Shown one piece after another: positions 13,531 through 51,290 of a DNA stretch of 64,000 nt. The DNA comes from Nitrospirota bacterium (GTDB taxonomy: Bacteria; Nitrospirota; Thermodesulfovibrionia; Thermodesulfovibrionales; UBA9159): the NCBI GenBank assembly GCA_963699545.1, contig CAVOUE010000002.1, forward strand, positions 1 through 64,000. The letters are read 5' to 3'. Both the position numbers and the translations under genes were made by a program. Below the pieces are notes generated by a model. The model ran no database searches. It worked only from the letters and a program-made list of their open reading frames with translations, and had not been told where the DNA came from. Each line of letters starts with the position of its first letter. The first letter of the stretch is position 1.

Positions 13531-13539
13531 GCAAGACCA

Positions 13540-13741
13540 CCCGATAAGATAACCACAGAGTCACTGAGGCACAGAGGGTCATGAAACAACTCCCTTAATC
13601 CCATTCTTCAATACCGACAGATCTATTCATTAAACATCTCCCGATAAGATAACCACAGAGTCACTGAGGCACAGAGCGTTTAAGAATCTATTCATTAAAC
13701 ATCTCCCGATAAGATAACCACAGAGTCACTGAGGCACAGAG
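13540..13741 (+). repeat. Three direct copies of a 37-bp repeat containing the 24-bp CCACAGAG arm
   Basis: CCCGATAAGATAACCACAGAGTCACTGAGGCACAGAG starts at 13540, 13640 and 13705. Copies 2 and 3 extend to a 56-bp identity (13621-13676, 13686-13741). Confidence 0.95.
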
Positions 13742-13742
13742 G

Positions 13743-14156
13743 TTATGAAACAAGTCTCTTAATACCATTTTTCAATACCGCAGCATAAAAATTAATGATG
13801 AGACCAACCTTACAATTTGATAGCCTAAGATATGTTAACAGCTGGGCTTCGTGAACAGGCAAAATTGTTTCGACACACTTAAGCTCCACTACCACTTTGT
13901 CATCCACAAGCATATCCATCCGATAGCCACAGTCAAGTTTTATGCCTTTATATTCCAGTGGCAGAGGTCTCTGTCTCTCGAAGGGAATTCCTTGCAGGCC
14001 CAATTCATAACAGAGACATTCTTCATAGGCAGATTCCAATAATCCAGGTCCGAGATGCCGATGAACCTCTATCGCACATGCAATAATATCTTGTGTTAAT
14101 CCTTCATCATAATAGATCTTCTCTGTGTCTCCGTGCCTCTGTGGTTTAATGTGCAT
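13743..14156 (-). CDS. GxxExxY family protein (PD-(D/E)XK nuclease-like)
   Basis: LGPGLLESAYEECL, YRMDMLVDDKVVVELK, AQLLTYL and GLIINF. Confidence 0.92.
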   Translation of the reverse strand: MHIKPQRHGDTEKIYYDEGLTQDIIACAIEVHRHLGPGLLESAYEECLCYELGLQGIPFERQRPLPLEYKGIKLDCGYRMDMLVDDKVVVELKCVETILPVHEAQLLTYLRLSNCKVGLIINFYAAVLKNGIKRLVS

Positions 14157-14251
14157 TTTTTCGAAGAACCCCTGTCGCCTCTTTAATGGCTCTTTTTGTC
14201 AATTTACTTTCACGATAGATCTTCTCTGTGTCTCCGTGCCTCTGTGGTTTA
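14112..14251 (-). repeat. Two direct copies of a 37-bp repeat containing the inverted 24-bp arm
   Basis: ATAGATCTTCTCTGTGTCTCCGTGCCTCTGTGGTTTA at 14112-14148 and 14215-14251. Confidence 0.95.
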
Positions 14252-14268
14252 GCATTCATGTTCTTCAT
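14146..14268 (-). pseudogene. 5' relic of a second GxxExxY allele (40 aa)
   Basis: MKNMNAKPQRHGDTEKIYRESKLTKRAIKEATGVLR aligns without gaps to the gene start KPQRHGDTEKIYYDEGLTQDIIACAIEVHR. Confidence 0.7.
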
Positions 14269-14276
14269 TTGCTTTT

Positions 14277-15363
14277 CTACTCACGATGTTTGAATGTCCT
14301 GAACCCTTCCCTCTTGCAGAGCTGATCCCTCTCCGCTTCCTTCAGGTCTTCCCGCACCATCTCGGAGACCAGTTCAGGGAACGTGATCGTGGGTGACCAG
14401 CCGAGCTTCTCCCTGGCCTTTGCGGGATCGCCGAGGAGCGTGTCGACCTCCGTCGGTCTGAAATAACGCTCGTCAACTTCGACGATCACCTTTCCGGTCT
14501 CTTTGTCGCATCCTTTCTCATCGATCCCTTTGCCTTTCCACTTGATATCGATCCCGACCTCCTGGAAGGCGGCGTGCACGAACTCCCTCACCGAATGCTG
14601 CTCTCCCGTGGCTATCACAAAGTCATCTGGCTCATCCTGCTGGAGGATCAGCCACTGGGCCACAATGAAATCTCTCGCGTGCCCCCAGTCGCGTCTCGCG
14701 TTCAGATTGCCGAGGAAGAGTTTCCCCTGCAATCCGAGTTTTATCCTTGCCGCCGCGCGGGTGATCTTGCGCGTGACAAAGGTCTCGCCACGGATCGGTG
14801 ACTCATGATTAAAAAGGATGCCGTTGCAGGCAAAGAAATCATAGGCCTCGCGGTAGTTCACCGTGATCCAGTACGAATAGAGTTTTGCAACGCCGTAGGG
14901 GCTTCTCGGATAGAAGGGCGTTGTTTCATTCTGCGGCGTTTCCTTCGCCTTGCCGTACATCTCTGACGTGGATGCCTGGTAGAACCGGGTCTTTTTCCCA
15001 AGACCGAGGATCCTGATGGCCTCAAGGAGTCTCAGGGTGCCCAGGGCATCCGAATTGGCGGTGTATTCGGGTGTCTCGAAGGAGACCATGACATGACTCT
15101 GTGCCGCGAGGTTATAGATCTCATCGGGCTGGACTTCCTGGATGATCCGGATGAGGTTCGTGGCGTCGGTGAGGTCTCCGTAATGCAGCCTGAACTTGAC
15201 CCTTTTTTCGTGGGGGTCTCTGTAGAGATGGTCGATCCTGTCGGTGTTGAAAAGGGATGCCCTCCGTTTTATCCCGTGGACCACATACCCCTTGTCAAGC
15301 AAGAAACTCGGCCAGATAGGCCCCGTCCTGTCCGGTAACGCCCGTGATCAAAGCGGTCTTCAT
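14277..15363 (-). CDS. gmd: GDP-mannose 4,6-dehydratase, frameshift near 15304
   Basis: [19 protein letters not shown] from 15363, then [33 protein letters not shown] and RPTEVD. Confidence 0.95.
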
Positions 15364-30114: not shown

Positions 30115-31875
30115 ATGACCCCATTGAAAAGAAAATTCATTATTGCCGCTTTAGTTGCGCTTACCACGTTCATGGTTTATCTTCCTGCACTCCAGAATGC
30201 TTTTGTAAACTGGGACGATGACGTATATGTTTACGGGAATTTCTTCATTCGTTCTATAGATATAAAATTATTTGGATCAGCATTTTTAGGGTTTCACGCA
30301 GGTTATTGGCTGCCCCTTATATGGATATCTCATGCACTGGATTATGCCATTTGGGGATTGAACCCTCTCGGGCATCATCTTACCAACAATATTCTCCACG
30401 CCATAAATACCTTTTTGGTGGTATTGCTGGTGGTAAGGTTAATTGGGTCCGGTTTTGGCGATTCATGTTCCTCCGGAAAATCCGGGACACTTCCGAACGA
30501 CCATAGGAAGCGTCCCTATTTTCCGTCCGGTTCCCCGGTTCCCAGTCCCCATTCACGATCCACATTGATCGCCGCTGGCGCAACCGGTCTTCTCTTTGGT
30601 CTCCATCCCATTCATGTGGAATCAGTAGCATGGGTAGCGGAAAGAAAAGACCTGCTTTGCGCTTTGTTTTATTTGCTCAGTGTCATGGCGTATGTGAGAT
30701 ATGCGGTAACAACCCTTTTTAGCCAGGAAACAAAGTTTGACCACAGAGGCACTGAGACACAGAGAGATTCAAATATACAAATCCGAAATCGTCTTTTCTC
30801 CGTGACTCCGTGTCTCTGTGGTTCATTTTCTCTCCATAGATATTATCTCCTCTCCCTCCTCTTCTTCACCCTCGCCCTCATGAGCAAACCGATGGCGGTC
30901 AGTCTTCCCGTGGTTCTGTTGATCCTGGACTGGTATCCCCTTAAGAGGATACAGTCTCTCAGGACACTGAGGGCTGCATTGTTCGAAAAACTCCCGTTTA
31001 TTGCGTTCAGTATCATTTCATCCATTCTGACTGTTCTGGCACAAAAAGCGGCAGGTTCTATCGCCTCGATAGAATCCGTACCTTTATCGGCAAGAGCGCT
31101 CCTGGCTGTGAAATCTCCCATCGCTTATCTCTGGAAAATGATATTGCCTCTGAATTTGATCCCATTTTATCCCTATCCTGAGGATCTGTCACCTTTATCT
31201 TTGGACTCTATTTTACCGATCGTACTCGCGGCGGGAATTACGGTTACCGGCTTCGCACTTGTGAGGAAACAGAAATTATGGTTGGCGGTCTGGGGTTACT
31301 TCATTGTGACCCTGCTTCCGGTTCTCGGCCTTGTTCAGGCCGGAAGCCAGGCAATGGCGGACAGGTTCACGTATTTGCCCAGTATCGGACCATTCCTTAT
31401 TTTCGGTCTGCTCGCGGCGGGCGTGTATAAAAGAGTGGCCTCCCTGAGAAGATGGAAGACGTTTCTGCAAACAGCCGGTCTTATCCTGGCCGGGGTCATG
31501 CTTGTGTCTCTGTCTTATGCCACGATAAAGCAGATCGGCGTTTGGAGGAATAGTCTCGTCCTCTGGAATTATGTCATCGGCAAAGAACCCTTAAGATCTC
31601 CATCAGCGCATTATAATCTCGGTAACGCCTACTTCTCCAAAGGCCTGTCAGATATGGCATCACGACAATACCAAATTACCTTGGGTCTGAAGCCGGATTA
31701 TTCAGCCGCTCATTTCAATCTTGGAGTCATCTATCTGAACAACGGTTCCATAGACATGGCGCGAAGAGAATTTGAGTTGGTGTTGGGCATGAGACCGGAT
31801 GATGACAAAGCACGAGAGCTTCTTAATTCCATTATCGCACGCTCCAATTCCGGGGACACCATCCCTGATTATTGA
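30115..31875 (+). CDS. TMTC-like GT-C/TPR protein (paralog 2)
   Basis: FVNWDD, HPIHVESVAWVAERKD, SKPMAV and ADRFTYLP, with a short TPR tail. Confidence 0.87.
   Translation: MTPLKRKFIIAALVALTTFMVYLPALQNAFVNWDDDVYVYGNFFIRSIDIKLFGSAFLGFHAGYWLPLIWISHALDYAIWGLNPLGHHLTNNILHAINTFLVVLLVVRLIGSGFGDSCSSGKSGTLPNDHRKRPYFPSGSPVPSPHSRSTLIAAGATGLLFGLHPIHVESVAWVAERKDLLCALFYLLSVMAYVRYAVTTLFSQETKFDHRGTETQRDSNIQIRNRLFSVTPCLCGSFSLHRYYLLSLLFFTLALMSKPMAVSLPVVLLILDWYPLKRIQSLRTLRAALFEKLPFIAFSIISSILTVLAQKAAGSIASIESVPLSARALLAVKSPIAYLWKMILPLNLIPFYPYPEDLSPLSLDSILPIVLAAGITVTGFALVRKQKLWLAVWGYFIVTLLPVLGLVQAGSQAMADRFTYLPSIGPFLIFGLLAAGVYKRVASLRRWKTFLQTAGLILAGVMLVSLSYATIKQIGVWRNSLVLWNYVIGKEPLRSPSAHYNLGNAYFSKGLSDMASRQYQITLGLKPDYSAAHFNLGVIYLNNGSIDMARREFELVLGMRPDDDKARELLNSIIARSNSGDTIPDY
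30741..30821. mobile_element. 81-bp in-frame MITE/REPIN-like element with GxxExxY-type arms (copy 1)
   Basis: CCACAGAGGCACTGAGACACAGAG-33 bp-CTCCGTGACTCCGTGTCTCTGTGG. Confidence 0.65.
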
Positions 31876-32081
31876 CTTGGGTCAGGCTGACCTGCTAACC
31901 TCCTTGCATGGCTTGCATTGCCAGAGTTATAGCTGCCGGGTTCCCGCATCATGTCACCCTGCACGGCAATTCCCGCGAATGCTGACTACTTGCTTTATGA
32001 CAAAGGATTTCCTTATCCCTTTTCAAAGGACGTGCCCTTAGGGGCCGATTGGTACTTGCGGCGCGGATTAAGTAGAGCGAT

Positions 32082-34097
32082 ATGAAAAGACTGATATCAC
32101 CCATACTGGACTCACTGAGGGCGCCTGCTTTGAAGGCTTCCCTTCTGCCGTTTATTACCGTAGTCGTGCTCGTCTCAGCCGGCGTTTATGCGAACACCCT
32201 CTCTAACGATTTCGTATACGACGACAGATCGCAGGTGCTGGAGAACCGTCTCATCCTGGATTTCAGGTACCTCCCCGATATATTTACCAGGAGCGCATGG
32301 AGCTTTCAGTCGGCTCCGGTCATCTCAAATTATTACAGGCCCATGATGAATGTCATCTACATGCTCAACTATTACATTTTCGGCCTCACCCCATGGGGTT
32401 TTCACCTGGTGAACATACTCTTTCATGCGGGGAACTCTGTTCTGGTCTTTCTCCTGACGGCAAGGCTGCTGCGGGATGCCCCGGATCGGGTATCCGAAAC
32501 AGGTGGCCGTCCGGTCTCTGCGAACATTCCCCCGTTTATCGCCGCGCTGTTATTTGCAACTCATCCCGTCCATACGGAGGCAGTGGCCTGGGTTGCCGCG
32601 GTGCCGGAGCTGTCTTTTACACTTCTTTATCTTCTGTCCTTTTATCTGTTCATCGGATCCGCCGCGGCATTCAGTGGCAAGTATGTGCTGTCCGTAGTGC
32701 TGTTTTTTGTCGCCGCATTCTGCAAGGAGAACAGCCCTGACCCTTCCGATCATCCTTTTCTGCTATGACTATCTCTTTCGCTCCTCCTCTCCATCCACCC
32801 CCGGCAAGGGGGGAATAAGATGGGGGTATTACTTGAAGCGCTCTCTCCCCTATGTGGTTGCAATGGTCGTATACATCATCATAAGGTTCTATGCGCTCGC
32901 GGGACTTGCACCCCATCAGGGGCGTTTTGGCTTCTCCCAATCCCTTATCAACGTATTTCCGCTTTTCGCGCAGTACCTGGAAAAACTCCTGCTTCCTTTC
33001 AACCTCAATGCGTTTCACGTCCTGCATCCGATCTCGTCCATCCTTGAGCCGGGGGGAATGATCGCGCTTGTTGTAACCGTTGCCTTTCTTGTTTTCGCGT
33101 TCCTCTCTTTTAGAAAGGACCGAAGAGCCTTTTTGTGCCTGCTTCTCATTGTCGTCCCTTTACTGCCTGTCTTCTATATCCCGGTGCTTGGACAGAATGC
33201 CTTTGCTGAGAGGTATCTGTATCTCCCCTCGTTCGGTTTCGTTCTCCTGCAGGCTTTATTGCTGAAGCGGGCCTGGACGGCTGCGCCAAGAATGGCCAGG
33301 GGGTTGACCATTGCAATGATAGCCGTAATGGGCGTTTATTCCCTGACTGCAATAAGCAGGAATGCCGTATGGGAAAATGACTACGTCCTTTTTGAGGATA
33401 CGGTGAGAAAATCCCCGGACGCTGCGATACCCCGCGAGCGTTTCGGGACCGCGTTGCTGAGCAGGGATCGGGCTGACGAGGCCATAGAACAATATCAAAT
33501 CGCTCTGCGCTTGAGCATGGATTATCCGGTGGCCCATGCGAATCTCGGGATCGCGTTGAAGGGCAAGGGATTGCTCGATGAGGCCATCAGGCACTTTCAG
33601 TACGCCGTAGCATTGCGCCCGGGCTTCCCGAGGATCACTTCAATCTCGCACAGGCCTTTCGGGACAGGGGCTTGCTCGAAAGGGCCGTTGCCGAATATCA
33701 GACTGCGTTATTGCTGAATCCGGATTTCGTTCTTGCGCGTTTCGATCTCGGGATCGCTTACGAGATGCTCGGGTTGAAGGACAAGGCCGCCGAGCAATTC
33801 AGGGTACTTGCCGAGAGACGTCCGGGTGATGCGATGAAGGAATTCAACAGAGGGGTGGATCTCTTTAATGAAGGATTGATCGAGGAAGCAATTGAGCACT
33901 ACCTGAATGCCTTGAGACTTGATCCGAATTTAGCCGATGCCCATAACAATCTTGGTGCAGCGTATGGGTCGGCCGGGTCGCTGGATAAAGCCATTGAACA
34001 TTTTCAGTCCGCTGTAAAATTGGATCCGGCCAATCCGACGTACCGCCAGAATCTATCGAGGGCCCGGGCACTGAAAGGGCGGAAGCCTGCCAACTGA
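32082..34097 (+). CDS. TMTC-like GT-C/TPR protein (paralog 3), frameshifts near 32733 and 33630
   Basis: FVYDD, YYRP, HPVHTEAVAWV, AERYLYLPS and TPRs spread over three ORFs. Confidence 0.82.
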
Positions 34098-34120
34098 ACA
34101 GAATTTCGGGAAGAGGGGAA

Positions 34121-36566
34121 TTACGTCACATTGCGCTTCTTCCGGATGTCCCTAAAAAGTGACAGGAATATCGCCATCAGGAGAACGCCGCTTACGACCA
34201 TTGCCGCATATATGCGACGAGGCACATATGTGAAGACAAGGGCATGTTCTCCTTCCGGCACTACAACCCCCCTCTGGACAGCATTCGTCTTGTATATCTT
34301 CGCCGGCTTCCCGTCAATATACGCCTCCCAACCCGGATAGAACTGGTCGGCGAGAACGACGAACCCTGTTCCCCTGAACCTCGCTGATACGGTCACTCTG
34401 TCGGGCCTGTCTTCCGATATGCTCACCTCACCGGGAGAAAAGCTGTCCGCCCCGATCTCCCGGAGGTCCTTCGTCGAAACAGCCGCTTCGTACCACGGAT
34501 TCACCCGATACGAAAAAATCCTTTTTAATAATTCATCCGCCGAATCAACCGGCTTAAGTCCTTTTACGGAGTGAGCCCTTGGCAGGGCGATCATATTCTC
34601 ATAGATCGAGAACGAAGGGCCGGTGGCGAGTGCCCGGTAGATCGGAAGATAATCCGCTCCATCAGGCCTTTTCGCGACCGGCGGGAAAGGGACGGACCTG
34701 CCTTCTCCATCCCTGCCGAAATACCACCTGACATCTCCGGGATTTCCGACGATGTTGTCGACCACGAGATATTTCACATTCAGGATGCTGAGCAGTGAGT
34801 TGTTCATGATAACGGTACGCCAGATCCCCGGTGGTTGTGTCCACATTGAAGGCAGGATCTTTTGATACTCTTCCAGCTGCAAGGGGTGATAACCTTCGAC
34901 GAGACGGATGCCGCGCGTCATGGCATTCAGCGGCACCATGTTGCTCGACATGAAGATCGCCCTGCCGCTGTTGCCGGATAAAAGAATAACGTCATACATT
35001 TGTTTGTTGTAATTCCTTACGGCATCGGCATCCGGCAGGGGCTCTTTCTTGTAGAGCATCGCCTCCGCGAAGATGAGGAAAAAGATAGCAACCAGCGCGG
35101 CATCCCTGAGAAAGCTTTTCCCGGCTTTCAGGCGGACAAGGACACTCGCAAGATAGGCGGAAATGGTGAGGATCGGAATATATATTCCAGGGTCGCTCAT
35201 GCTCAACGCGTCTTTGGGAACGTCGCCGCGCTCCCATCGCAGTTGAAAGTGTTGCATTTGAGAAAAACTGTCCCTGAAAAAATCGCGTAATGCATCATGG
35301 AACAGGGTAAACCCGATGAGAGAAGCGAGAATTACCGCGGAAAGGGCTATGACAAGCTCTGTTCGAAAACGCCTTTCTTTTTCCCTATCCATCAGGAAGG
35401 ACATGCCGAAACCCACGAGGATACTCATGGAAAAAGACACTTCAAGTATGTGCTTCGACGGCCCTCTGAATACATTGTAGACCGGCAGATGAAAAAGCAG
35501 CTTGTTGAGAGGCCGTATGCTGTCGCCGAGGGCGAGCAGAAAGGCCAGAACTGCCATCATCCCCCAGAAGAAGATGAGGGGGTTCCTCTTCCATCTGAAG
35601 AAAATGAGTATGCAGAGCACAAATGGCAGAGTACCCACAAAAGCCTCCTGCCCCAATTCCGGTGTTGGCCCCCAAAAATCAGAGCTATAGCTGCCCCCAT
35701 AGTAATACAGAAAGGGGAAAAGAAAAGTGGGTATCATGTACACAGGAAAAGCAAAGGATGAGAAGAACTCATAGGACGCAAGCTTTGTTGTCACTGCCAT
35801 TGTTGAAAGTTCGTACGTGGCCAGAATTTGGGGAAGCACCATCAGACATCCAAGTGCAAAGGAAAGGACGCTTAACAAGGCGAACCTCGATCTCTTTGCG
35901 GGATCCAGGGAATACAGGCAGAATATAATATAGAGCGTAACCATGATATATGTGTAGAAACATACCTGGAGAGTCCCCGCAAGACCCTGCATGGCAACGG
36001 TAAGCCCTAAATAGAGAGCATCTTTGACCCTGAGGTCCTGTCTCAACCGTTCAAGAAAAAAAGGATGAGCGGTATCCATGCGCCTGGAATTACCACCATC
36101 GGATGCTGTAAATGTGCGGGAAGATAACCCAGGAGAGAGAAGACAGTGCCCGATACGAGGGAAGGGAACACCCCCAGGCCGATCTGCCTGGCGTAAAGGA
36201 ACGTAAAAAAACCGGCGAGCGCGTAATGAAGCATGAAGTTGAGATTAAAAGCGAGAATGGGATCGGGAAGTGCGGAGATTACGACATGAACAGGATAAAG
36301 AGCGCCTGCAGTCATATTGGCGAAAAAGGGGAAACCCGAAAACTGATATGGGTCCCAGAAAGGGAAAGTAAGTATCCCTGTATTGACGTGACATCATGAC
36401 CATCATAGGGTAGGATTGGTCGAAGCCGTCTCCCGATCGCAAGAACAGCGCCCTTCAGGAATACATCATAGAAATAGATACAGGTGAGGGCCGCAAATAC
36501 AGGCAGATATTTGATCTCTTTTCTTAACTTAACCATTTTTTCCTGAACAGCAAGCACATTCTCCAA
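34121..36566 (-). CDS. YfhO-like GT-C membrane glycosyltransferase, frameshifts in the 5' part
   Basis: Fragments GDGFDQSYP, AGALYP and a polytopic core; C-terminal LADQFYPGWEAYIDGK and GVVVPEGEH. Confidence 0.78.
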
Positions 36567-36695
36567 TAACAGAAGTATAGTATGACAAAGTTTTCACCAT
36601 TTGCAAGGAAGTTCCTGATGTCGCATGCACTGCTCAGGAAGTGGTGTGGGGTCAAAGCGTCAGTGCAAGTCCTGTCCGCCGCACATTATGTTCTT

Positions 36696-38723
36696 TCATT
36701 TGTGTGTTGATCGTGGGGCCTCCAGCGCGTAACATCCGTCTTTATAACCAAGATCGCATGCCTTCTGAAAATCCAGCATGGCAAGCTCCCTGTTCCCCTG
36801 ATTGAGGCTGAGCTTTCCCCGGCTAAAATAAGCCGGACCGTGATTTTGATCGAGCCGGACGGCCTTATCGAAGTCTTCAAAGGCCCTGTCATTCCTGCCG
36901 ACGAGGGCATAGGAAATGCCTCGGCTGACGTAAGCGTCAACGTCATTCGGATCTATCTCAAGAGACTTCGTGAAAGATTCTATCGCCTTACCGAACAATC
37001 CGGTCTTGTTATAGGTGAGACCTCTATTATAATATGCCTCGCGAAAAGACGGATTCGAGGCAATTGCCTTATCAAAGTCCGCGATCGCCTCATCAAACCG
37101 GCCCATTTTGTCAAACACAAAACCCCTGTTATAATATGCCTTGTGAAAGAACGGATTCATGGCGACTGCCCTGTCAAAGTCCGCGATCGCCTCATCAAGC
37201 CGGCCCATATCAATAAGAACTTTCCCCCGGTTATTATAGGCCATACTGACCCCCTGGGGTTGCCTTTCAATAACATAACTCCATAGAGCGATACTGTTCT
37301 TCCATATGCCTATCTGGTGAACGGTCGACCAGGCCAGCGAAACAGACGCAAGAACAGCGATAGATGCGATCGCGAGATCAAGGATCTTCGCGTGCTTCTC
37401 TGCCGTATGTGCCTTCGTCGCAACCCATGCTCCCGCCAAACCTATGAGGAGGAATGGACCGAGGCCGGGCAAATACGTGTATCGGTCTGCCATAGCCTGC
37501 CCCCCCACCTGAACAATGCCGAGCACCGGGATAAGCGTTATGACGTAATACCCCCAGACTGCAAGCCATACCTTCCGCTTTCTCGCGGCGGCAATGCAGA
37601 GTACCATAATTCCCGATACAAGAAGCACAGCAAGGAGATACCGGGGAGATCCAAACGACACGTCATTCGGATAGGGATAGTAAGGGACCAAATGCAGCGG
37701 AAAGGCCATATTCCGGAGATAAGCCAAAAGAGATCCGGCTGCCACGGTCACCCGTGTTGACAGCGGAACAGACTCCATCAGTTGCATCGCCGCTACCGCC
37801 TTTTGCGCCATGATAGTTACCATGGATGAAATAACGCTTAAGACGACGAACGGGAGTTTCCCGGTAAGCGCGCTCCTGAACGTCCTGAAGGATGTGATCC
37901 TCTCAAAAGGGTACCAGTCCAGGATCAGCAGAACAAGGGGAAGGCTGACCGCCATGGGCTTGCTCAAGAGGGCGAGGATGAAGAAGAGGAGGGAGAGGAG
38001 ATAATATCTATGGAGAGAAAATGAACCACAGAGACACGGAGTCACGGAGAAAAGACGATTTCGGATTTGTATATTTGAATCTCTCTGTGTCTCAGTGCCT
38101 CTGTGGTCAAACTTTGTTTCCTGGCTAAAAAGGGTTGTTACTGCATATCTCATGTACGCCATGACACTCAGCAAATAGAACAAAGCGCAAAGCAGGTCTT
38201 TTCTTTCCGCCACCCATGCTACCGATTCCACATGAATGGGATGAAGACCAAAGAGAAGACCGGTTATTCCGGCGGCGATCAATGTGAACCGTGACGGGGA
38301 ACTGGTGACCGGCGGAAAATAGGGACGCTTCCTATGGTCGTTCGGAAGTGTCCCGGATTTTCCGGAGGAACATGAATCGCCAAAACCGGTCTCAATGAAC
38401 CTTACCACCAGCAATACCACCAAAAAGGTATTTACGGCATGGAGAATATTGTTGGTCAGATGATGCCCGAGAGGGTTCAGTCCCCAGACGGCATAATCCA
38501 GGGCATGGGATATCCATGTGAGAGGATGCCAGTTGGCGGCATAGAAATCAAAAAATGCCCACTTGAAAAAAGCCGGATCAAAAGAACGGATATGAGGGTT
38601 GTTAAGAACATACCGTGGATCATCCCACTCGACGAATTCATTGCGAAGAGATGAAAGATATACAACAAACGCGATAACTGCAACAGAAAAGGCAAGACAG
38701 TAGTTGAGATTCTGTCTTTTCAT
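36696..38723 (-). CDS. TMTC-like GT-C/TPR protein (paralog 4)
   Basis: FVEWDD, NWHPLTW, HVESVAWVAERKD, ADRYTYLP and YNRG TPRs. Confidence 0.87.
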   Translation of the reverse strand: MKRQNLNYCLAFSVAVIAFVVYLSSLRNEFVEWDDPRYVLNNPHIRSFDPAFFKWAFFDFYAANWHPLTWISHALDYAVWGLNPLGHHLTNNILHAVNTFLVVLLVVRFIETGFGDSCSSGKSGTLPNDHRKRPYFPPVTSSPSRFTLIAAGITGLLFGLHPIHVESVAWVAERKDLLCALFYLLSVMAYMRYAVTTLFSQETKFDHRGTETQRDSNIQIRNRLFSVTPCLCGSFSLHRYYLLSLLFFILALLSKPMAVSLPLVLLILDWYPFERITSFRTFRSALTGKLPFVVLSVISSMVTIMAQKAVAAMQLMESVPLSTRVTVAAGSLLAYLRNMAFPLHLVPYYPYPNDVSFGSPRYLLAVLLVSGIMVLCIAAARKRKVWLAVWGYYVITLIPVLGIVQVGGQAMADRYTYLPGLGPFLLIGLAGAWVATKAHTAEKHAKILDLAIASIAVLASVSLAWSTVHQIGIWKNSIALWSYVIERQPQGVSMAYNNRGKVLIDMGRLDEAIADFDRAVAMNPFFHKAYYNRGFVFDKMGRFDEAIADFDKAIASNPSFREAYYNRGLTYNKTGLFGKAIESFTKSLEIDPNDVDAYVSRGISYALVGRNDRAFEDFDKAVRLDQNHGPAYFSRGKLSLNQGNRELAMLDFQKACDLGYKDGCYALEAPRSTHK
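38026..38106. mobile_element. 81-bp in-frame element (copy 2)
   Basis: Reverse complement of 30741-30821. Confidence 0.65.
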
Positions 38724-40663
38724 TTGCGCGTTGTTCGTAAAGCCTGCAGCGCGTTACAGCCTTCTTTATTCCCTAACCCGCATGCCTTCTGAAAATCCAG
38801 CATGGCAAGCTCCCCGTTCCCGGTATGGAGCCAAAGCCTTCCACGATTTAAATAAGCCGGGACATGATTTTGATCGAGCTGGATAACTTTATTAAAGTTT
38901 TCAAAGGCCCTGTCCTTCTGACCCAGAAGCGCATAGGAAATGCCGCGGCCGACGTACGCGTCAAAGTTATTCGGATCTATCTCAAGAGACTTGCTGAAGG
39001 ATTCTATCGCTTCGGCGAACAACCCGATCCTGTTATACGTAATACCCCTGTTATAATAGGCATCTTTAAAAGACGGGTTCAGAGTAATTGCCTTATCAAA
39101 ATCTGCGATCGCCCTGTCAGGCCTGCCGATCTTGTCAAATGCAATGCCCCTGTTACCATAGGCTATAGGGACCCCTGTGGGCTGCCTTTCAATAACATAG
39201 CTCCAGAAGTCAATGCTGTTTTTCCATATACCTATCTGGTTAACGGTTAAAGAGGCTAACGAAACAGACACAACAACAGCGAGGGCAGCAAAGGCAAGCT
39301 TAAGTATTTTGCCCCACTTCTCCGGTGCGCGCCCCTCAGCCGAAATCCACGCTCCCGCCAAACCTATGAGGAGAAATGGACCGAGACTGGGCAAATACGT
39401 GTATCGGTCTGCCATAGCCTGCCCCCCTACCTGAACAATGCCGAGCACGGGGACCAGTGTAATAACATAATAACCCCAGACCGACAACCATAATTTTTGT
39501 TGTTTTGCCGCGATGATACAGGCTGCCGTAATGCCGACCACAAGGACCGCTGCCGACAAATACCCAAAGGAGAAAAATGACGGGTCCCTGGGATAAGGAT
39601 AACAGGGGATCAGATTCAGGGGCAGTATCATGTTCCAGAGATAAGCAATAAGGGATTTGGCTGCCACGATCACCCGTCTTGATAACGGAACAAACTCCAT
39701 CAGTCTCATGGCCCCTTCCCCCTTTTGAGCCATGACAGTCAGCATGGACGAGACAACACCTAAGGCAATGAACGGCAGTTTCTCGAAGAACGCCGCCCGA
39801 AATGTCTTCAGATCATTCATCCTCTGACAGGGATACCAGTCCAGAATCAGCAGAACGACGGGAAGACTGACCGCCATCGGTTTGCTCATGAGTGCGAGAG
39901 TGAAGAAGAGGAGGGAGAGGAGATAATATCTATGGAGAGAAAATGAACCACAGAGACACGGAGTCACGGAGAAAAGACGATTTCGGATTTGTATATTTGA
40001 ATCTCTCTGTGTCTCAGTGCCTCTGTGGTCAAACTTTGTTTCCTGGCTAAAAAGGGTTGTTACCGCATATCTCACATACGCCATGACACTCAGCAAAAAG
40101 AACAGGGCGCAGAGGAGGTCCTTCCTCTCCGAGACCCATGCAACCGATTCCACGTGAATAGGATGAAGGCCGAAGAGAAGGCCGGTCACGCAGGCGGCGA
40201 TCAACGTGAAACGTGAATCGTGAACTGTGAAAGCTGAAAAGTTGAGTTGTTGAGCAGTTGACTTGTTGCCCGACCGCTCAACTACTTGACCACTCAACGG
40301 GCGCCTTGCGGCCTCTACCAGCCTCACAACAAGCAATACAACCAAAAAAGTGTTGACCGCATGGAGGATGTTGTTCGTCAGGTGATGGCCCAAAGGATTC
40401 AGGCCCCATACCGCGTAATCCAGTGCATGGGAAATCCACGTGAGCGGACGCCAGTAGTCAACTGCGGAGAAATTAAGAAATGCCCATTTGAAGAAAGCCG
40501 CGTCAAGCGAGCGTATGAAGGGGTTTTGATAAACATTCAGATCATCATCCCAATTGACAAATTCATTTTGAAGAGATGAAACATAAACCAGAAATGTAAC
40601 AACTGCAACAGAAGCGGCAAGATAGTATGTTAAATCATGTTTTTTCATTTGTGTGCTGCTCAT
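38720..40663 (-). CDS. TMTC-like GT-C/TPR protein (paralog 5)
   Basis: FVNWDD, HVESVAWVSERKD, ADRYTYLP and TPRs; 4-bp overlaps with both neighbours. Confidence 0.87.
   Translation of the reverse strand: MSSTQMKKHDLTYYLAASVAVVTFLVYVSSLQNEFVNWDDDLNVYQNPFIRSLDAAFFKWAFLNFSAVDYWRPLTWISHALDYAVWGLNPLGHHLTNNILHAVNTFLVVLLVVRLVEAARRPLSGQVVERSGNKSTAQQLNFSAFTVHDSRFTLIAACVTGLLFGLHPIHVESVAWVSERKDLLCALFFLLSVMAYVRYAVTTLFSQETKFDHRGTETQRDSNIQIRNRLFSVTPCLCGSFSLHRYYLLSLLFFTLALMSKPMAVSLPVVLLILDWYPCQRMNDLKTFRAAFFEKLPFIALGVVSSMLTVMAQKGEGAMRLMEFVPLSRRVIVAAKSLIAYLWNMILPLNLIPCYPYPRDPSFFSFGYLSAAVLVVGITAACIIAAKQQKLWLSVWGYYVITLVPVLGIVQVGGQAMADRYTYLPSLGPFLLIGLAGAWISAEGRAPEKWGKILKLAFAALAVVVSVSLASLTVNQIGIWKNSIDFWSYVIERQPTGVPIAYGNRGIAFDKIGRPDRAIADFDKAITLNPSFKDAYYNRGITYNRIGLFAEAIESFSKSLEIDPNNFDAYVGRGISYALLGQKDRAFENFNKVIQLDQNHVPAYLNRGRLWLHTGNGELAMLDFQKACGLGNKEGCNALQALRTTRK
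39948..40028. mobile_element. 81-bp in-frame element (copy 3)
   Basis: Identical to 38026-38106. Confidence 0.65.
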
Positions 40664-43116: not shown

Positions 43117-44106
43117 ATGAAGAAAGCCCTTGTCATTATCCCCACCTACAATGAAAAGGAAACGCTCCCCGCTGTCGTCCATTCCATTCTGAAGCACGCC
43201 GGGTTCGACATCCTCGTGATCGACGACGGTTCTCCAGACGGTACGGCCGGAGTCGTCAGGGAACTAATGGCGACCGGGAACAGGGTGTTCCTTATTGAAA
43301 GGCCCGGGAAGCTCGGCCTCGGCACCGCATACGTGGAAGGCTTCAAATGGGGGCTTGAACGGGGCTATGACTATTTTATCGAGATGGACGCAGACGGGTC
43401 GCATGATCCTGAAGCATTGCCTTCTTTTATCGGTGAGATGGAAAAAGGCCGTGATCTGGTCATCGGGGGCAGATATCTCAACGGAAGGATCAGTGTCGTC
43501 GGATGGGATTTTCACAGGCTCATGCTGTCAAAGGCCGGTAATTTCTACGCCGCATGGATGCTGGGTTCGAGGCTGACGGATCTGACGAGCGGCTTCAGGT
43601 GTTACTCCCGGAAGGCCCTCGAGTCCATTGACCTCGATAAGATACATTCTAACGGTTACGCGTTCCAGATAGAGATGGCCTACCGTGTTTCAGCGGCCGG
43701 CGGCAGGGTCGGCGAAATGCCTATCATATTCTACGAGCGCACATCGGGCATTTCCAAGATGTCGAAGAAGATAATCCGGGAGGCTGTTGGCCTTCCCTGG
43801 CGGTTGCGGCTCATGCGGACCTTCGGCGGCAGACTGAAAGGCGGGGCTGCGGACATGAGCTATCACGTCAGGACGATCATCGGACTTCTCCTTGTCATCA
43901 TGGGCCTTGCGGGCTGTCTGTACCTCGGATGGTGGCTGAGCACTGAAGGTGACATCGTCGAGATCATTCACAGAGCCAAGATGAGCCTGCCGGGGTGGGC
44001 ATGGGTTGTAATGAAGATCGGCCTTGCCGCCTTTTCCGGGGTATTGTTCATAGCGTTCTTTGCGGCTTTGGCTGTAATGGTTTTTGCGGGCGGTGGAAAG
44101 AAGTAG
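43117..44106 (+). CDS. Polyprenol-phosphate-mannose synthase-like GT2 (Ppm1/DPM1) with two C-terminal TM helices
   Basis: IIPTYNE, DDGSPDGT, GKLGLGTAY, EMDADGSH, DLTSGFR, SNGYAFQIE and SKMS. Confidence 0.85.
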   Translation: MKKALVIIPTYNEKETLPAVVHSILKHAGFDILVIDDGSPDGTAGVVRELMATGNRVFLIERPGKLGLGTAYVEGFKWGLERGYDYFIEMDADGSHDPEALPSFIGEMEKGRDLVIGGRYLNGRISVVGWDFHRLMLSKAGNFYAAWMLGSRLTDLTSGFRCYSRKALESIDLDKIHSNGYAFQIEMAYRVSAAGGRVGEMPIIFYERTSGISKMSKKIIREAVGLPWRLRLMRTFGGRLKGGAADMSYHVRTIIGLLLVIMGLAGCLYLGWWLSTEGDIVEIIHRAKMSLPGWAWVVMKIGLAAFSGVLFIAFFAALAVMVFAGGGKK

Positions 44107-44144
44107 GTGCACGCTTCTCTTTCGGTTTTGTAAGCCTTGTCCCT

Positions 44145-46453
44145 TCACCTGAACCGGGGATTCTGCAGATCGGCACAACTCTGTGTGCTCCCCAGAGAAC
44201 AGGCCTGCTGAAAGTCCGCCAGCAGCGCTGCTCATATCTCCCTTGCTGAGGTAGACGAGCGCCGCGGTTTCTGTAGGCCTCGGGATCGCGCGGACTGAGT
44301 TCCACGAATCTTGTAAAGGCGGCAAGGGCCTCGTCGAGACGTCCGAGTCTCGCGTAGGTCGTTCCAAGGCCGTGAAAGGCCGCACTATTGTTGGGGTTTA
44401 CGGCGATCGCCCTGCGAAAATTCTCGATGGCCTCATGAGGCCGTCCGAGATCCGAGTAGGCACGGCCCAGGTTGAGATAAGCGGCGCTGTTTTTCGGATC
44501 TTTTGCAACTACCGCTTAGAACTTTTCAATGGCCGCATCGAGACGGCCGGTAACGGCATAAACTACCCCGAGATTCATATAGGCGTTCAGATAGCGGGGG
44601 TTCAATGCGATAGTGTGTTCATACATCCTGATCGCTTCATCGTTCCTGCCCTTTTCATAGTAGGCGATTCCCAGATTGTTATACCCCCTTGAGGAATTCG
44701 GGCTTTTGCGGACAACGTCCTCCCACAGGCTGATCTTGTCCTTCCATAGCACGTTCCGCGCATAGGTGGCTGCCGCAAGCACCAGTATGATCAGCGCAAA
44801 CAGGGCAGCGGCAAACTCTTGGCGAATCGTGAATAGTGAATCGTGACTAGTGAACTCTGCTTAACGAGAAGCAGTGATACCCGCAACAAGCGCAATGAAA
44901 GAACCCGACCGAGGGCAGGTAGACCCTGTATTCGTTTATCAAGCATCGGTATCGGGATGATGCTCGATTCGACCGAAAGCGTTATGAAAAACCAGAGGAT
45001 GCCGAAGGCGATAAGACGATAAAAGGTGTAATAGGTGAAACGCCCCCCTTTACTTCCCCCCTTGGCAAGGGGGGATTGAGGGGGGTGTCTTCCTCATGGC
45101 TGACTGACCTGAAGGCTGATGGCCGACTTGCTCATCACTTATTGCCCTTCGCCTGCTTTTGTACGACAGATACACCGCCGCCCCGAAGAAGGCCGCCAGA
45201 AACAGAAAAGACAGCAAAACCGGCGGTCGAAGAACGAATGATACAAGGGATAATCATAATCGATGTTCTGGCCGACCGGCAGGAAGAGGAGCCGTATGTA
45301 GGTGACAATGACCCTGAACTGGGTAAAAAGATAGTCTGCCGGCGCCGGGGTGATATAACCCATGTGACGCAGGGTCTTTCACCTGGCTTATGATCTCCCC
45401 CGGTGTGCTGCCTGCACCCATTATCGTCAGCGGGACGATCAGCATGGTGAGGAGAAAGGGCGCAAGCCTCAACAACCTGCGTCTTCACCGGCCCGCTGAA
45501 GAAGAGAAATTCATAAAGCGTAATGATGACCGGCAGGGTAAAGGCGTTTTCCTTTGTCTTCATCGCAAGGACGGCGGAAAGAAGAGACAGATAGATACCA
45601 TAGGCTGAAGTCGTGAAGCGATGCAGAGCGGTTGTTAGCCTCTGACTTGCTGACCTGCTTGACTCGGTCTGACCTGCCGAGCTGATCAGCCTTCCTTTTA
45701 TGTACAGCACCAGCGACAGCAGATAAAACATGCTCACAAGGGACGCAAGCCTCTGGAAAACATAGGTCACCGCCTCTGTCTGGATGGGGTGAGCGACAAA
45801 GAGCAGGGCAACGGCAAGGGCGAAAAATCGTGAATCGTGAATCGTGAATCGTGAATCGTGCAGGGGCAGTGGTACCTCCCCCGGCCTTGACTCCTGACTC
45901 CTGACTGCCCCAGCCCCTCCTTGTCCCCGCCTTGCCAAGGGGGCGATGGGGGGGTAGGAAATACGGCGTCCTGAAGGTCAGCAGAACAAGAAAATAGACC
46001 AGTATCGCATTTATAAGATGAATGGCAAGATTAACGACATGATAGCCGAGGACATTGAACCCGTGCAGTTTATAGTTCAGGGCAAAGGTGAGATATCCTA
46101 TGTACCTTGACTTGAGGCCGTCATAGACCGGCAGACCCCTCTGCCCGCGAGATGTCCGTAAAATAGCCCAGGTTTCTGATAATAGGGTTCCCCACAATGA
46201 AATCCGCCTCGTCCCACTGAAAAGGGTTCTGGAAGGTATTGGAATACGCCAGAAGACCGAGGACAACGATCAGGAGGAGGTGGACAACCAGTCCTGAAAG
46301 GAAGAAACTCCCCTTATCGGGAGACGCTGGAGATTGTGAACGGACTGTTTCATTGTCCTTGTTGGACTGCACGGTCGTCAGGCTATCCACTTGTGAGTTC
46401 GCTGGCCCGCCGGCCTGCGCCGATGATCGTTTCTTCCTCGATGCCTTGCCCAT
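44145..46453 (-). pseudogene. TMTC-like GT-C/TPR gene (paralog 7), many frameshifts (error or decay)
   Basis: MGKASR start, FQWDE, HPIQTEAVTYVFQR, RNVLWKD and TPRs ending DFQQACSLG...RFR*. Confidence 0.75.
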
Positions 46454-46564
46454 GGAGTAATATAACACAAACATTTATTGCGGCGACAACGATGTTAACA
46501 AGAGGATTCGGCGAGCCGTTAAGTGGTTGAGCGGTTTATCCAGATCGACCCCTCAACGACCTGA

Positions 46565-48598
46565 CTACTTACTATTCATTTCATTCTTGCTTTTCAGCCC
46601 CCTGGCCCTTTCAAGGTTCTGCCGGTAGGCGGGGACGCCGGGAGAAAGCCGAATCGCCTCCTCAAAGTGCTTGATCGCCTCATCATAGAACCCTTTTTGC
46701 CCGTAGAGGACGCCAAGAATATTGCGATAATCGCCGTTTTTCGGCTCCAGGCTCACCGCCGCCCTGAGCGCACGCTATCGCTTCATCCAGCCGTTTCACT
46801 TGCACGTATACGCGCCCGAGCTTGACATGCGCCTCGGCAAAATCATACTTCAGCCGCAGTGCGGCATGAAACTGTTCAATCGCCTTTTCTGCCATGTTAT
46901 TTTCGGCATAGGCCACCCCCAGTAAATACCGGTTCCCGGCATCATTCGGAAGCAATGAGACAGCTTTCTGAAGATATTCTATCGCTTTTCCGGCCTCCCC
47001 CATTTTGAGGTACGTCTCCCCGAGGTTGATAAGGGCGTCATCATACCGGGGATCAAGTTCCAATGCCCTCTGGAACTGTTCGATCGCCGGGGCGTTCAAG
47101 CCCTGCTTCAGAAAGGCGGCTCCAAGGTTATTATGGGCGATCCTATTGCCCGGGTCCATGGTCAGGACAAGCCGGTATTGCTCAATGGCCTCGTCGATCA
47201 TGCCTTTCTCCAGTAATGCGTCTCCAAGACCCAGGTGCGGCAGGACGCCGTCAGGAGATTTCCTGGCGGTATCCCTGAATAACACGATTTCGTCTTTCCA
47301 ATCCGGCGTTTCTGCCGACCGTACCGGCGCTGTAAAGGAGCAGCACCGCTGTGATTCCTATGGTCATCCCGGCTGACGCCCGCGGATATTTTTCTGCTGC
47401 CCGGGCAAGAAGGTATGCCATGAGGAAACAAAACCCCACTGACGGGAGATAGAGATACCTTTCCGTAAAGACGTTCCTCCCGAGTCCCGGAATATAAAAG
47501 GCCGGCAGGAGAGGGATCACGATCAGCAGGAGACCGAAGAAAGCCGTCCGGTCCTTTCTGAGAGAAAGGTATGCGGCGGCCGAAAAGAACGCCGCAATGA
47601 GCAATGATGCTATTGTCCTTGTCTCTGTGATTGATCCGACAGGATGAAACACATGGTATGCATTGAGCTCCGCCGGCAGGAAGAGTTTCTCCAGATATTG
47701 GCTGAAGAGCGGAAAAATATTCATGACAATCCGGAGCGCATTCAGGTCCTTATGCAGATTTACCGGAGCGAACCCGCCGAGAGCGCTCATCCTCATGATA
47801 AAGTAGATCCCTGCAACCGCAAAGTAAGGTATGTATTTTTTTATATGATCCTTGCGTGCTCCCCCCACCCCGTGCCGGGCAACGCTTCCTTCATGGCCTG
47901 CCTCGCCCTTCTCAGGCAGCATCGGACGACGAAAAACAGAGTCATACGCAACAAGAATGAGCGGAAGCACCAGCGCCGTCTCCTTACAAAGGGCAGCCAG
48001 GAAAAAGAAGAACACGGACAGGGCATAAGAGAGACCAGCTTCGTGAGCTGACAAAGAGATAAAAGGACAGGAGACAAAAGAATGCGAACGAGACCTCCGG
48101 CAACCCGGAGACCCATGTTACGGCCTCCGTATGAACAGGATGGACTGTGAACAGAAGCGCGGCGACAAAGGCAACAGAACGTGAACCGTGAATCGTGTAT
48201 CGCGAATCGACCAGGGGCGGGGCGCCCCTGCCTTTTTCTCCGGCAACCAGCAGCCTCTCGCTCACAAGAAAGACCATAACCGAAACGCCGCAGTGGAAAA
48301 GAATGTTCACCATATGAAAGCCCCAGGGCACAAGCCCGAAGAGATAAAAGTCGAGCATGAAAACGACATGCATCAGAGGCCGGTAATAGTTGGCGGAAAA
48401 TTCTTCCTGGAAACCCCATACAGGACTTGAGAACATATCGGGGACATGGCTGATATCGGTGATCCAGGGGTTTTCCACCACCTGGGGAATATCATCGTAG
48501 ACAAAACCATTGAAGAGAGCGTTGAAGTAAACGGCAAAGCTGACAGCAACGATTATGACCGCGAGAATAAAGGTTCTTCCCCTCGATGCCTTGTCCAT
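46565..48598 (-). CDS. TMTC-like GT-C/TPR protein (paralog 8), frameshifted
   Basis: FVYDD, NYYRP, HPVHTEAVTWV, TERYLYLPS and TPRs over four ORFs. Confidence 0.8.
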
Positions 48599-48744
48599 GG
48601 AGTAATATACCATACGCAGTTACAGCAGGTGATTGAGTAGTCAAGATAAGTGGTAACGACCGATCACTCTGCGTTCCTTAGAGCCGACGCAATTATTCAG
48701 CCAATCACCCCTACATTACTGACTTCCTGCTCACTTCTCACCAT

Positions 48745-51118
48745 TTACTGTTTGCTTTTCATCCCCCTGGCCCTTTCGAGGTTCTGCCGGTAGGCAGGGC
48801 TTTCCGGGGCCAGCCGGAGGGCTGCCTCGAACTGTTTGATAGCCTCATCATATAAACCTTTTTGTCCGTATAAAACCCCGAGGGTGTTGTGATAATAGCT
48901 GTCCTCCGGCCTCAGTCTCACGGCAGCCTCGAGCTCCGCTATCGCTTTGTCCAGCTGTTTCACCTCATGTATGCGCGTCCGAGGTTGTAATGCGCCACGG
49001 GATAATCCGGCGCAAACTGCAGGATCTTCAGATAGCTATCGATCTCCTTTTCAATGTCCCCCTTTTGCCTGTACGCATTTGCGAGATTATTGAAAGCCGC
49101 GGCTGAATTGGGAGTGATCTTCAAGGCCGCCTGAAGCTCTTCAATCGCCTTGTCGGCAAGTCCCTTCTTCCCGTAGGCGTTTCCCAGATTGAGATGCGCC
49201 TGCCAATTGCGCGGGGCCAGCCGGAGGACTGTCTGATATTCCGCAATCGCCTCGTCGAGCCGGCCCATGGCCTCCAGGGTGTAGCCCAGGTTGATACGGG
49301 GAGTGGGCACATCCGGAGCGAGCTGCAATGGCCTTCCGGAATTGCTCGATCGCCTCTTCCTTTCTGCCCAGTTCCTCATAGACCAGTCCCAAGATTGTCG
49401 TATCCCATCCCCAGGCCGGGGCTCTTGCGCACGATGTCCTCCCACAGGCTGACTTTGTCTTTCCATACGCTATTCCGGGCATATGTGGCGGATGCGAGCG
49501 CAAGTATGATCAGCGCAAAACAAGCGGCAACCATCTGTGACTTGTTGACACGTGACTTGTGCCTGGCGAAGTCTGTTAACGAGAAGCGCTGACACCGGCC
49601 ACAAGCGCAAGGAAAAATCCGACCGACGGCAGGTAGACCCTGTACTCATCGATGACCATCGGTATCGGTATGATGCTCGATTCAACCGAAAGCGTTATGA
49701 AAAACCAGAGGATGCCGAAGCCGATGAGGCGTGAATAGTGAATAGGTGAATAGTGAGGATAACACCCCCCTTTATCTTCCCCCCTTGGCAAGGGGGGATT
49801 GAGGGGGGTATCTTCCTGCATGGCTGCATCTGACCGAAGGCTGACGGCCGATGAGCCGATTAGCCCTGTGCAGCTCTGCCTGCTTCTGTAAATCAGATAC
49901 ACCGCTGCCCCGAACAGGGCCGCCAGAAACAGGAAGGAAAGCAAGACCGGCGGCGCGAAGAACGACTGATATATCGGATAATCATAGAGCAGGTTCTGGC
50001 CTGAGGGCCAGAAGAGTAGCCGCAGGTAGGTGACAATGACCCTGAACTGGGTAAAGAGATAGTCTGCCGGCGTCGGGGTGATATAGCCCAGAGATACAGG
50101 GTCTTTCACCTGGCTTATGATCTCCCCCGGTGTGCTGCCTGCACCCATTATCGTCAGCGGAACGATCAGCATGGTGAGGAGAAAGGGCGCAAGCCTCAAC
50201 AGCCTGCGTCTTCACCGGCCCGCTAAAGAAGAGAAATTCATAAAGCGTATGATGACCGGCAGGGTAAAGGCGTTTTCCTTTGTCTTCATGGCAAGGACGG
50301 CGGAAAGAAAAGACAGGATAAAGCAGGTTAAGGCTGAGGTGAGGATGCGGAGCGGTGGAGCAGTCTTAGCTCTTCTGCCTTAACCTGCTGACCGCTGGCC
50401 TGCAACCTGTATCTGTCTTCCCTTTATGTACAGTACCAGCGACATCAGATAAAACAGGCTCACAAGGGACGCAAGCCGCTGAAATATATAGGTCACCGCC
50501 TCTGTCTGGATGGGGTGGCTGACAAAGAGCAGGGCAACGGCAAGGGCGACAAAACGTGAATCGTGAATGGTGAATCGTGAATGGTGCGTAGTGAACTGAG
50601 CAACCCCTCCCTGTTCCCCCCTTGACTAAGGGGGGATGAGGGGGGTTATTGCTGATCGCTGACAGCTGACTGGTCAAAATACGGCGTCCTGAACGTCAGC
50701 AGCACAAGAAAATAGACCAGCTATCGCATTTATTAGATGAATTGCAAGATTAACAACGTGATAGCCGAAGACATTAAACCCGTGAAGTTTATAGTTCAGG
50801 GCAAAGGTGAGATATCCTATATACCTTGACTTGAGGCCGTCATAGACCGGCAGACCCTCTGCCCGCGAGATGTCCGTAAAATAGCCCAGGTTTCTTATAA
50901 TAGGGTTCCCCACGATAAAATCCACTTCGTCCCACTGAAAAGGGCTCTGGAAGGTATTGGAATAGGCCAGAAAACCGAGGACGACTATCAGGAGAAGATG
51001 GACAACCTGCCTGGAAAAGAAGATCGTCCTTATCAGGAGGGTTGGAAGATACCGGCTCTTTCCTGTCTTTGCCTATATCCGCAGGTAACGACTGCGTTCT
51101 TCTTGAGGCCTTCCCCAT
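48745..51118 (-). pseudogene. TMTC-like GT-C/TPR gene (paralog 9), many frameshifts (error or decay)
   Basis: MGKASR start, YDGLKSRYIGYLTFALNY, DEYRVYLPS and TPR fragments; 5' half nearly identical to paralogs 6 and 7. Confidence 0.75.
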
Positions 51119-51290
51119 TGCGTACTATACCATAAGCGGTTATTGCGGCGGACCTACACAGAATCGCAGTTGGACGTCTCACAGAGATTCGTTCAGAAGC
51201 CTGGCACATAATTCGTTATCGGTCGGTCTGCAAGACATGCACTATCCACGAAAACAAGAAGCAGCCGGCCAGACTTCATGCTGTGCCCCC

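What the first reader, a model, noticed from the sequence alone, without database searches (positions are those of the whole stretch)
30741..40028. Gene-less 81-bp version of the GxxExxY arm pair sits in frame in three genes
Seen: two inverted arms around a 33-bp spacer, in the same orientation as around the GxxExxY gene, at 30741-30821, 38026-38106 and 39948-40028. The length is a multiple of 3 and it encodes HRGTETQR...SVTPCLCG. The copies are identical and lie within a ~190-bp near-identical block of otherwise diverged paralogs. Paralog 10, of the same class, lacks it. Inference: a non-autonomous derivative inserted once and spread by conversion or duplication. It is the best local evidence that the arms move without the gene.
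Basis: partly seen in the sequence, partly recalled or inferred. Interest (0 to 1): 0.8.

Follow-up and report, generated by a model that had tools for sequence, protein, structure and literature searches.

The report
Nuclease-linked hairpin translated inside three genes
An 81-base hairpin, of the kind that elsewhere brackets a small nuclease gene of unknown function, sits in frame in a floppy loop of three related membrane-enzyme genes, but it entered once, long ago, and was then copied between those genes by recombination, so the better evidence that such hairpins travel without their gene comes from other genomes.

Summary
Observation confirmed: three identical 81-bp copies (two 24-nt arms, 33-nt spacer), in frame; arms match those round the GxxExxY gene (15 arms in the genome, 0 in a shuffle). 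The three copies are one event: they sit in 163-191 bp identical tracts of otherwise 49-66% identical GT-C/TPR paralogs, and two homologues from other assemblies carry a diverged copy at the same site and length. So they are not evidence of independent hops. The broader idea gains support elsewhere: two more gene-less pairs lie between genes in this genome, one at a junction empty in a congener, and in two other Nitrospirota genera gene-less units of one spacer family occupy different sites that are empty in congeners, with variable 2-11 bp duplications set back from the arms. Some pairs are deletion shells; one had its interior swapped. Against: no GxxExxY gene in 5 of 5 genomes of one such genus. 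It works like a REPIN/RPE with a PD-(D/E)XK partner; a sister arm family was listed in Geobacter in 2009 as regulator sites. The scan noted the cassette and such loops before on other DNA.

The parts
30741..30821 (+). gene-less arm pair, copy A, in frame in loop 2 of GT-C/TPR paralog A
38026..38106 (-). gene-less arm pair, copy B
39948..40028 (-). gene-less arm pair, copy C
30679..30869 (+). 191-bp conversion tract, identical to 39900-40090
39900..40090 (-). 191-bp conversion tract in paralog C
37979..38141 (-). 163-bp conversion tract in paralog B
30115..31875 (+). host gene A, 586 aa, GT-C-type membrane domain plus TPRs (TMTC-like; label from homologue names and recall)
36696..38723 (-). host gene B, 675 aa
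38720..40663 (-). host gene C, 647 aa; element at about residues 213-239, pLDDT 50-55, between two helices
56532..58172 (+). same-class paralog without the element (37-residue loop)
13743..14156 (-). GxxExxY gene (TIGR04256, PF13366), only full copy found in the genome, between gmd and fcl
14121..14144 (-). 5' arm of the GxxExxY cassette (inside the longest ORF's first codons)
14161..14259 (-). second 5' arm (14224-14247) followed by a 5' remnant of a diverged GxxExxY gene
   Evidence: 57% over 33 aa
13553..13741 (+). three tandem 3' arms (13553, 13653, 13718), each followed in gene direction by a copy of the fcl ribosome-binding site and start; a 3' remnant of a diverged GxxExxY gene at about 13577-13618
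   Evidence: remnant read by eye; orthologue L237 has the same three-arm layout
30449..30525 (+). second conversion tract (77 bp, A-B) over loop 1, holding a different inverted repeat like those flanking the Y1 transposase gene on C3

Best explanation
The 81-mer is a gene-less member of a widespread family of arm-spacer-arm units whose autonomous form carries a GxxExxY PD-(D/E)XK nuclease gene. SHOWN: arms are cognate; one such unit lies in a low-confidence loop of a GT-C glycosyltransferase, in frame; it is old and kept at constant length in other lineages; in this genome it was recently copied among three paralogs by short-patch recombination using the conserved helices on each side. SHOWN IN OTHER GENOMES: gene-less units with a shared spacer appear at sites empty in congeners, mostly at stop/start overlaps, with a variable short duplication 15-30 bp outside the arms; interiors can be swapped between existing arm pairs; some pairs are deletion shells of the gene. 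INFERRED: the nuclease recognises the arms on DNA and cuts, and host repair (strand invasion or microhomology-primed synthesis) copies an arm-bounded piece into a new or an already armed site. The loop copy arose by such a gene-less insertion, surviving because its net length was a multiple of three and the loop is permissive. The peptide is a tolerated passenger with no function of its own.
For: Arms; 43 of 80 closest GxxExxY loci carry at least one such arm, 27 on both sides. Loop 63 aa against 30-48 (mode 37, 9 of 21) in homologues (two mis-parsed rows dropped). P0004/P0005: same site, same 63 aa, 59-61% loop identity against 27% for the next of 71, yet ranks 7-63 in other segments. Longest identical runs between paralogs sit on repeat-bearing loops (191, 163, 77, 56 bp; longest without a repeat 64). 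New sites: G343 unit, 158-bp insert, empty in 3 of 3 congeners aligned, 11-bp overlap duplicated; G575 unit, 144 bp, empty in 2 of 3; G451 unit empty in 3 of 3; all share spacer families with units at other loci. Interior swap at icd/mdh in G497. Within-pair symmetry exceeds shuffled pairing in 119 pairs (outer 1-4: 0.73 vs 0.47; outer 5-10: 0.40 vs 0.29). No G-U bias on the transcribed strand (15 vs 20 in 27 cassettes), fitting DNA-level recognition. PD-(D/E)XK fold (Z 7.8-7.9, weak).
Against: No GxxExxY gene in 5 of 5 genomes of genus g63 (three at least 90% complete), where the cleanest gene-less insertions were seen; five of 61 relatives have arms but no gene hit. The window spacer is shared with no other locus in this genome or in 300 genomes of the order (that search scored only 2 candidates per genome). 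In the cross-phylum sample spacers are almost all unique (3 of 7021 pairs similar). No empty allele of the exact loop was found, so insert ends and any duplication are unknown. Filled/empty polarity was inferred from majority among congeners, not from a tree. Loop swapping needs no nuclease: the flanking helices are the most conserved part of the gene. No activity of GxxExxY has been tested.
Confidence: 0.55

Rival explanations
1. Shell model: only the full cassette moves; every gene-less pair, including the loop copy, is what remains after the gene was deleted or overwritten by conversion from another pair. The loop copy passed through a broken-gene stage tolerated because paralogs are redundant.
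For: L399 spacer is a fusion of GxxExxY 5' and 3' ends, L364 a 5' remnant; 2 of 81 spacers score weakly on a GxxExxY DNA profile, none in 20 shuffles; interior overwriting is seen; remnants flank the window's own gene; at least seven same-class paralogs.
Against: 79 of 81 spacers, including all three in this genome, show no remnant (low power on short spacers). Lineage-specific units of near-constant length (104-105 bp) at separate sites in genomes with no gene found would each need insertion plus overwriting. Other repeat families sit in frame in housekeeping genes such as aroC, where a full cassette would be hard to tolerate.
Confidence: 0.25
2. Arms are host-used DNA sites (binding sites of a regulator or nucleoid protein, or mRNA hairpins at operon junctions) that spread by host recombination; GxxExxY is a passenger or a domesticated site-specific nuclease like SsnA and does not mobilise them.
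For: Gene-less units spread in genomes with no GxxExxY found; Aklujkar 2009 read the sister family as regulator sites (PMC2700814); SsnA cuts near its repeat and modulates recombination without shown transposition (PMC11893778); strong hairpin (z -4.9 and -6.6).
Against: Same junctions hold different arm families, a four-helix-bundle gene or nothing in close relatives, unlike conserved regulation; arm type varies with the GxxExxY locus it brackets; no strand bias for RNA pairing.
Confidence: 0.15
3. The three identical tracts are an assembly artefact.
For: Metagenome-type assembly; no reads examined (one search listed none).
Against: Tract ends differ by pair and fade through single substitutions; P0004 and P0005 show the same pattern, one loop on different backbones, in other assemblies.
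Confidence: 0.05

Closest known systems
Geobacter metallireducens 'class 2 predicted global regulator binding sites' (PMC2700814; I saw passages, Fig S4 file whole, Table S4 part 2 and search rows)
   Same: Three tandem units of consensus TCTCCGTS[Y], 21 pairs on opposite strands facing the same way, variable unique spacers; same 7-nt core as the arm here.
   Different: Unit spacing and tail differ; all listed rows are intergenic; the paper's passages read them as regulator sites and the term GxxExxY search did not return it; here one is translated.
REPIN/RAYT (PMC3116915; abstract and Discussion read)
   Same: Non-autonomous inverted doublet with spacer, hairpin, one partner gene flanked by the same repeats, mostly extragenic.
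   Different: Partner is PD-(D/E)XK, not an HUH/Y1 transposase; arms are tandem 8-mers, not palindromes; low copy number; spacers mostly unique.
Ssn/SRM (PMC11893778; abstract and Discussion read)
   Same: Small single-domain nuclease gene between its cognate inverted repeats, with gene-less repeats elsewhere.
   Different: Ssn is GIY-YIG with shown ssDNA cleavage; GxxExxY is PD-(D/E)XK, untested.
Rickettsia palindromic elements (seen only through the review PMC10969869, passages and Introduction)
   Same: Palindromic repeat inserted in frame, adding a peptide to a host protein.
   Different: RPEs are about 150 bp with many independent in-gene insertions; here one in-gene insertion was found, multiplied by conversion, and a candidate partner gene exists.

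Membership tests
GxxExxY arm-pair family (TIGR04256-linked) | arms match those flanking a GxxExxY gene, inward-facing | tested here: met
Geobacter class 2 paired sites | three tandem units with the same core, paired on opposite strands, variable spacer | tested here: met
   compared by eye
Geobacter class 2 paired sites | same unit spacing and terminal tail | tested here: not met
   sister subfamily
MITE | terminal inverted repeats, no coding cargo, 50-500 bp | tested here: met
MITE | fixed-length target duplication abutting the repeats | tested here: not met
   none above control in 119 pairs; variable 2-11 bp duplications set back from the arms at four sites in other genomes
MITE | same full unit at several independent sites of the genome | tested here: not met
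   three independent loci in G000 have unrelated spacers; met in genera g62 and g63
MITE | partner is a known transposase | tested here: inconclusive
   partner is PF13366, function 'Unknown' in PMC3424549; no activity testable
REPIN/RAYT | inverted doublet forming a hairpin | tested here: met
REPIN/RAYT | repeats flank a Y1/RAYT transposase gene | tested here: not met
   the two Y1 genes of G000 have other flanks and no arm lies near them
Ssn/SRM | partner is a GIY-YIG nuclease | tested here: not met
Ssn/SRM | site-specific ssDNA cleavage near the repeat | not testable with these tools
   needs purified protein
RPE-like coding repeat | in-frame insertion in an exposed, tolerant loop | tested here: met
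RPE-like coding repeat | many independent in-gene insertions | tested here: not met
   none of 20 of 22 candidate frames from 122 pairs has a Pfam domain on both sides; 1 of 79 Nitrospirota pairs is in a known gene, the window's (one further long frame, L332, not scanned)
RNase III-excised intervening sequence | stem selected and cut at the RNA level | tested here: inconclusive
   no G-U bias (n=27); no RNA data

The most novel reading that the evidence does not exclude
GxxExxY is the catalytic part of an undescribed class of transposase-free mobile DNA: a 130-residue PD-(D/E)XK nuclease cuts at its 8-mer arms and host repair writes arm-bounded DNA, with or without the gene, into new sites (splitting stop/start overlaps by duplicating them), swaps interiors between armed sites, and drives conversion of the protein loops it lands in, making it a generator of new peptide sequence and a programmable cassette-exchange tool.
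Probability: 0.3. Interest if true: 0.85.

Novelty: new variant of a known kind. Interest (0 to 1): 0.5.

Why it matters
GxxExxY is a large family listed as of unknown function. A cognate DNA substrate, natural empty/filled site pairs and a translated copy give direct tests of what it cuts and whether a nuclease with no transposase fold can spread DNA. It also offers a case of repeat DNA becoming lasting protein sequence and being shuffled between paralogs. The three window copies alone are a modest case: one old insertion plus gene conversion.

Tried and rejected
Sequencing runs: none was listed, so no read or RNA check. Rfam: no match in the window. Metagenome scan for the loop-plus-arm DNA of P0004/P0005: 0 matches, so their DNA was not seen. 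Protein search with the 42-aa loop: only the window's three (weak evidence). Adjacent target duplication: not above control. Spacer remnants of GxxExxY against 27 cassette interiors: no excess over shuffles; profile test found 2 of 81. Three independent hops: rejected (shared flanks, same site). Whole-gene duplication: rejected (backbone divergence). PDB sequence searches for host domain and GxxExxY: nothing significant; Foldseek on the host gave only TPR matches in the rows shown. Tree of 45 host proteins: quick version only, poorly resolved; first attempt failed. A count of how many homologue loops carry repeat-derived peptides was not obtained; that statement rests on reading by eye, and that set is biased to long loops by the query. 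Literature: GxxExxY in 3 papers, 2 listed, one passage read, not about repeats; PF13366 in 2; searches returned no paper whose listing links these arms to a nuclease. Subscription journals and bioRxiv supplements are not covered. Cyanobacterial SDRs and the original RPE papers are recalled only.

Full report
Observation. The three 81-bp copies are identical, in frame and at the stated coordinates. Each arm is three imperfect 8-nt units; the pair folds into a long hairpin on either strand (z -4.9 and -6.6). The genome holds 15 arms and one base shuffle none: five round the single GxxExxY gene (TIGR04256, PF13366), six in the three genes, and two further gene-less pairs, between aroC and aroK (C6, 164 bp) and between gatA and gatB (C7, 122 bp), with unrelated spacers. 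Homologue labels point to Thermodesulfovibrionales, Nitrospirota.

Host genes. They are membrane proteins with TPR tails; the model's membrane part matches GT-C enzymes (Pmt1-Pmt2, Z 18.7, rmsd 4.8, 357 aligned), and JGI names several homologues protein O-mannosyltransferase. 'TMTC-like' is my recalled label. The element falls in a loop with pLDDT 50-55 between two helices. That loop is 63 residues here, against 30-48 (mode 37 in 9 of 21; two mis-parsed rows dropped) in homologues of the family, so the net gain is about the size of the element, but its ends cannot be fixed.

One event, then conversion. Identical runs are 191 bp and 163 bp, centred on the element, in genes 49-66% identical in residues 279-495. 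Two proteins from other assemblies, P0004 and P0005, have the element at the same site with the same loop length, conserved arms and a diverged spacer. They rank first and second of 71 in the loop (59-61% against 27%) but 7th to 63rd elsewhere. The loop therefore travels between paralog backbones as a patch, and the insertion is old. The longest identical runs among 15 paralog regions sit on repeat-bearing loops (191, 163, 77, 56 bp; longest without 64), which is suggestive but also expected from conserved flanking helices. By eye, many homologue loops carry other repeat families (not counted), and this genome has such repeats in frame in aroC and other long ORFs.

Do arms move without the gene? 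Locally: gatA/gatB is 161 bp apart here, overlapping in the congener G002 and 75 bp or less in 9 of 10 relatives where both genes were adjacent; aroC/aroK holds an orthologous diverged pair in G002 and other arm families, a gene that I read by eye as four-helix-bundle type, or almost nothing in others. In-gene copies are rare: no frame with domains on both sides among 20 of 22 candidates, and only the window's among 79 Nitrospirota pairs. In that set 11 of 3081 spacer pairs were similar, several with unrelated flanks. Following these: a G343 unit is a 158-bp insert, empty in three congeners, duplicating an 11-bp stop/start overlap whose left copy keeps the coding end and right copy the ribosome-binding site; a G575 unit (144 bp) of the same spacer family is empty in two of three congeners, the third holding a different arm structure; a G451 unit is empty in three. 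At icd/mdh in G497 the interior matches the rnz/ychF unit while outer flanks stay site-specific, an interior swap. A fourth site (L382) could not be resolved. Deletion shells also exist (L399, L364). Against the nuclease as mobiliser: none was found in 5 of 5 genomes of the G343/G575 genus, though 5 of 5 of the G451/G497 genus have it.

The autonomous form. 43 of the 80 closest GxxExxY loci carry such an arm, 27 on both sides. Arms of one cassette resemble each other more than shuffled partners (22.1 vs 19.4 of 24) and show no G-U bias on the transcribed strand (15 vs 20). The window cassette has tandem 3' arms each followed by a copy of the fcl start, as has a 92% identical orthologue, plus remnants of a diverged GxxExxY gene, signs of repeated turnover at one site. 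The fold is PD-(D/E)XK with no close solved relative (best Z 7.9).

Mechanism. Most likely (0.55) a REPIN-like unit with a PD-(D/E)XK partner: cut at the arms (inferred), host repair copies arm-bounded DNA, and one unit landed in frame in a permissive loop and was later spread by paralog conversion. Rivals: shells only (0.25), host-used sites with a passenger nuclease (0.15), artefact (0.05).

Known work. A sister arm family was listed in G. metallireducens in 2009 as regulator sites (PMC2700814). REPIN/RAYT, Ssn/SRM and RPEs (review only) are the working analogues; membership fails on the partner fold or on repeated in-gene insertion. My searches listed no paper linking these arms to GxxExxY; PF13366 is 'Unknown' in PMC3424549. 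The scan itself reported the cassette and repeat-built loops on other DNA; those notes gave leads, not support.

Verdict. Real and well above chance; interpretation partly supported; new variant of a known kind; interest 0.5.

Noticed in passing
window 13530-14280: Each tandem 3' arm of the GxxExxY cassette is followed by a copy of the fcl ribosome-binding site and first codons; in orthologue L237 the copies follow that genome's own fcl start, i.e. they evolve in concert.
   Followed up: partly
G000 C7:101757-101909 (L194): The gatA/gatB arm pair is read through by a roughly 50-codon ORF whose stop overlaps the gatB start (read by eye), which could preserve translational coupling.
   Followed up: no
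G000 C6:408939; C5:238848; C6:376447; C3:154219; C3:471311: Heptamer arrays and G/C-run hairpins lie in frame inside aroC and other long ORFs; no DUF559 gene was found in this 87% complete genome.
   Followed up: partly
window 43690-51120 and 32082-33717: Several further GT-C/TPR paralogs are split over more than one ORF: frameshifts, phase variation at G/C runs or assembly errors.
   Followed up: no
G000 C6:407577-407993: aroK appears frameshifted after about codon 110.
   Followed up: no
L195-L213 (aroC/aroK junction): One junction holds at least five different repeat or cassette types across 17 relatives: a hot spot shared by unrelated families.
   Followed up: partly
L435, L389, L393, L395, L415: Ssn-type-looking hairpins (recognised from recall) nested inside GxxExxY arm pairs, and one inside a GxxExxY gene.
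   Followed up: no
L005, L006, L010: The site upstream of a folC-like gene carries GxxExxY cassettes with different arm types in different relatives (gene named by eye).
   Followed up: no
PMC2700814 Fig S4, Gmet_I219A/B: One Geobacter class 2 pair is 438 bp apart, the size of a full cassette; its interior was not examined.
   Followed up: no
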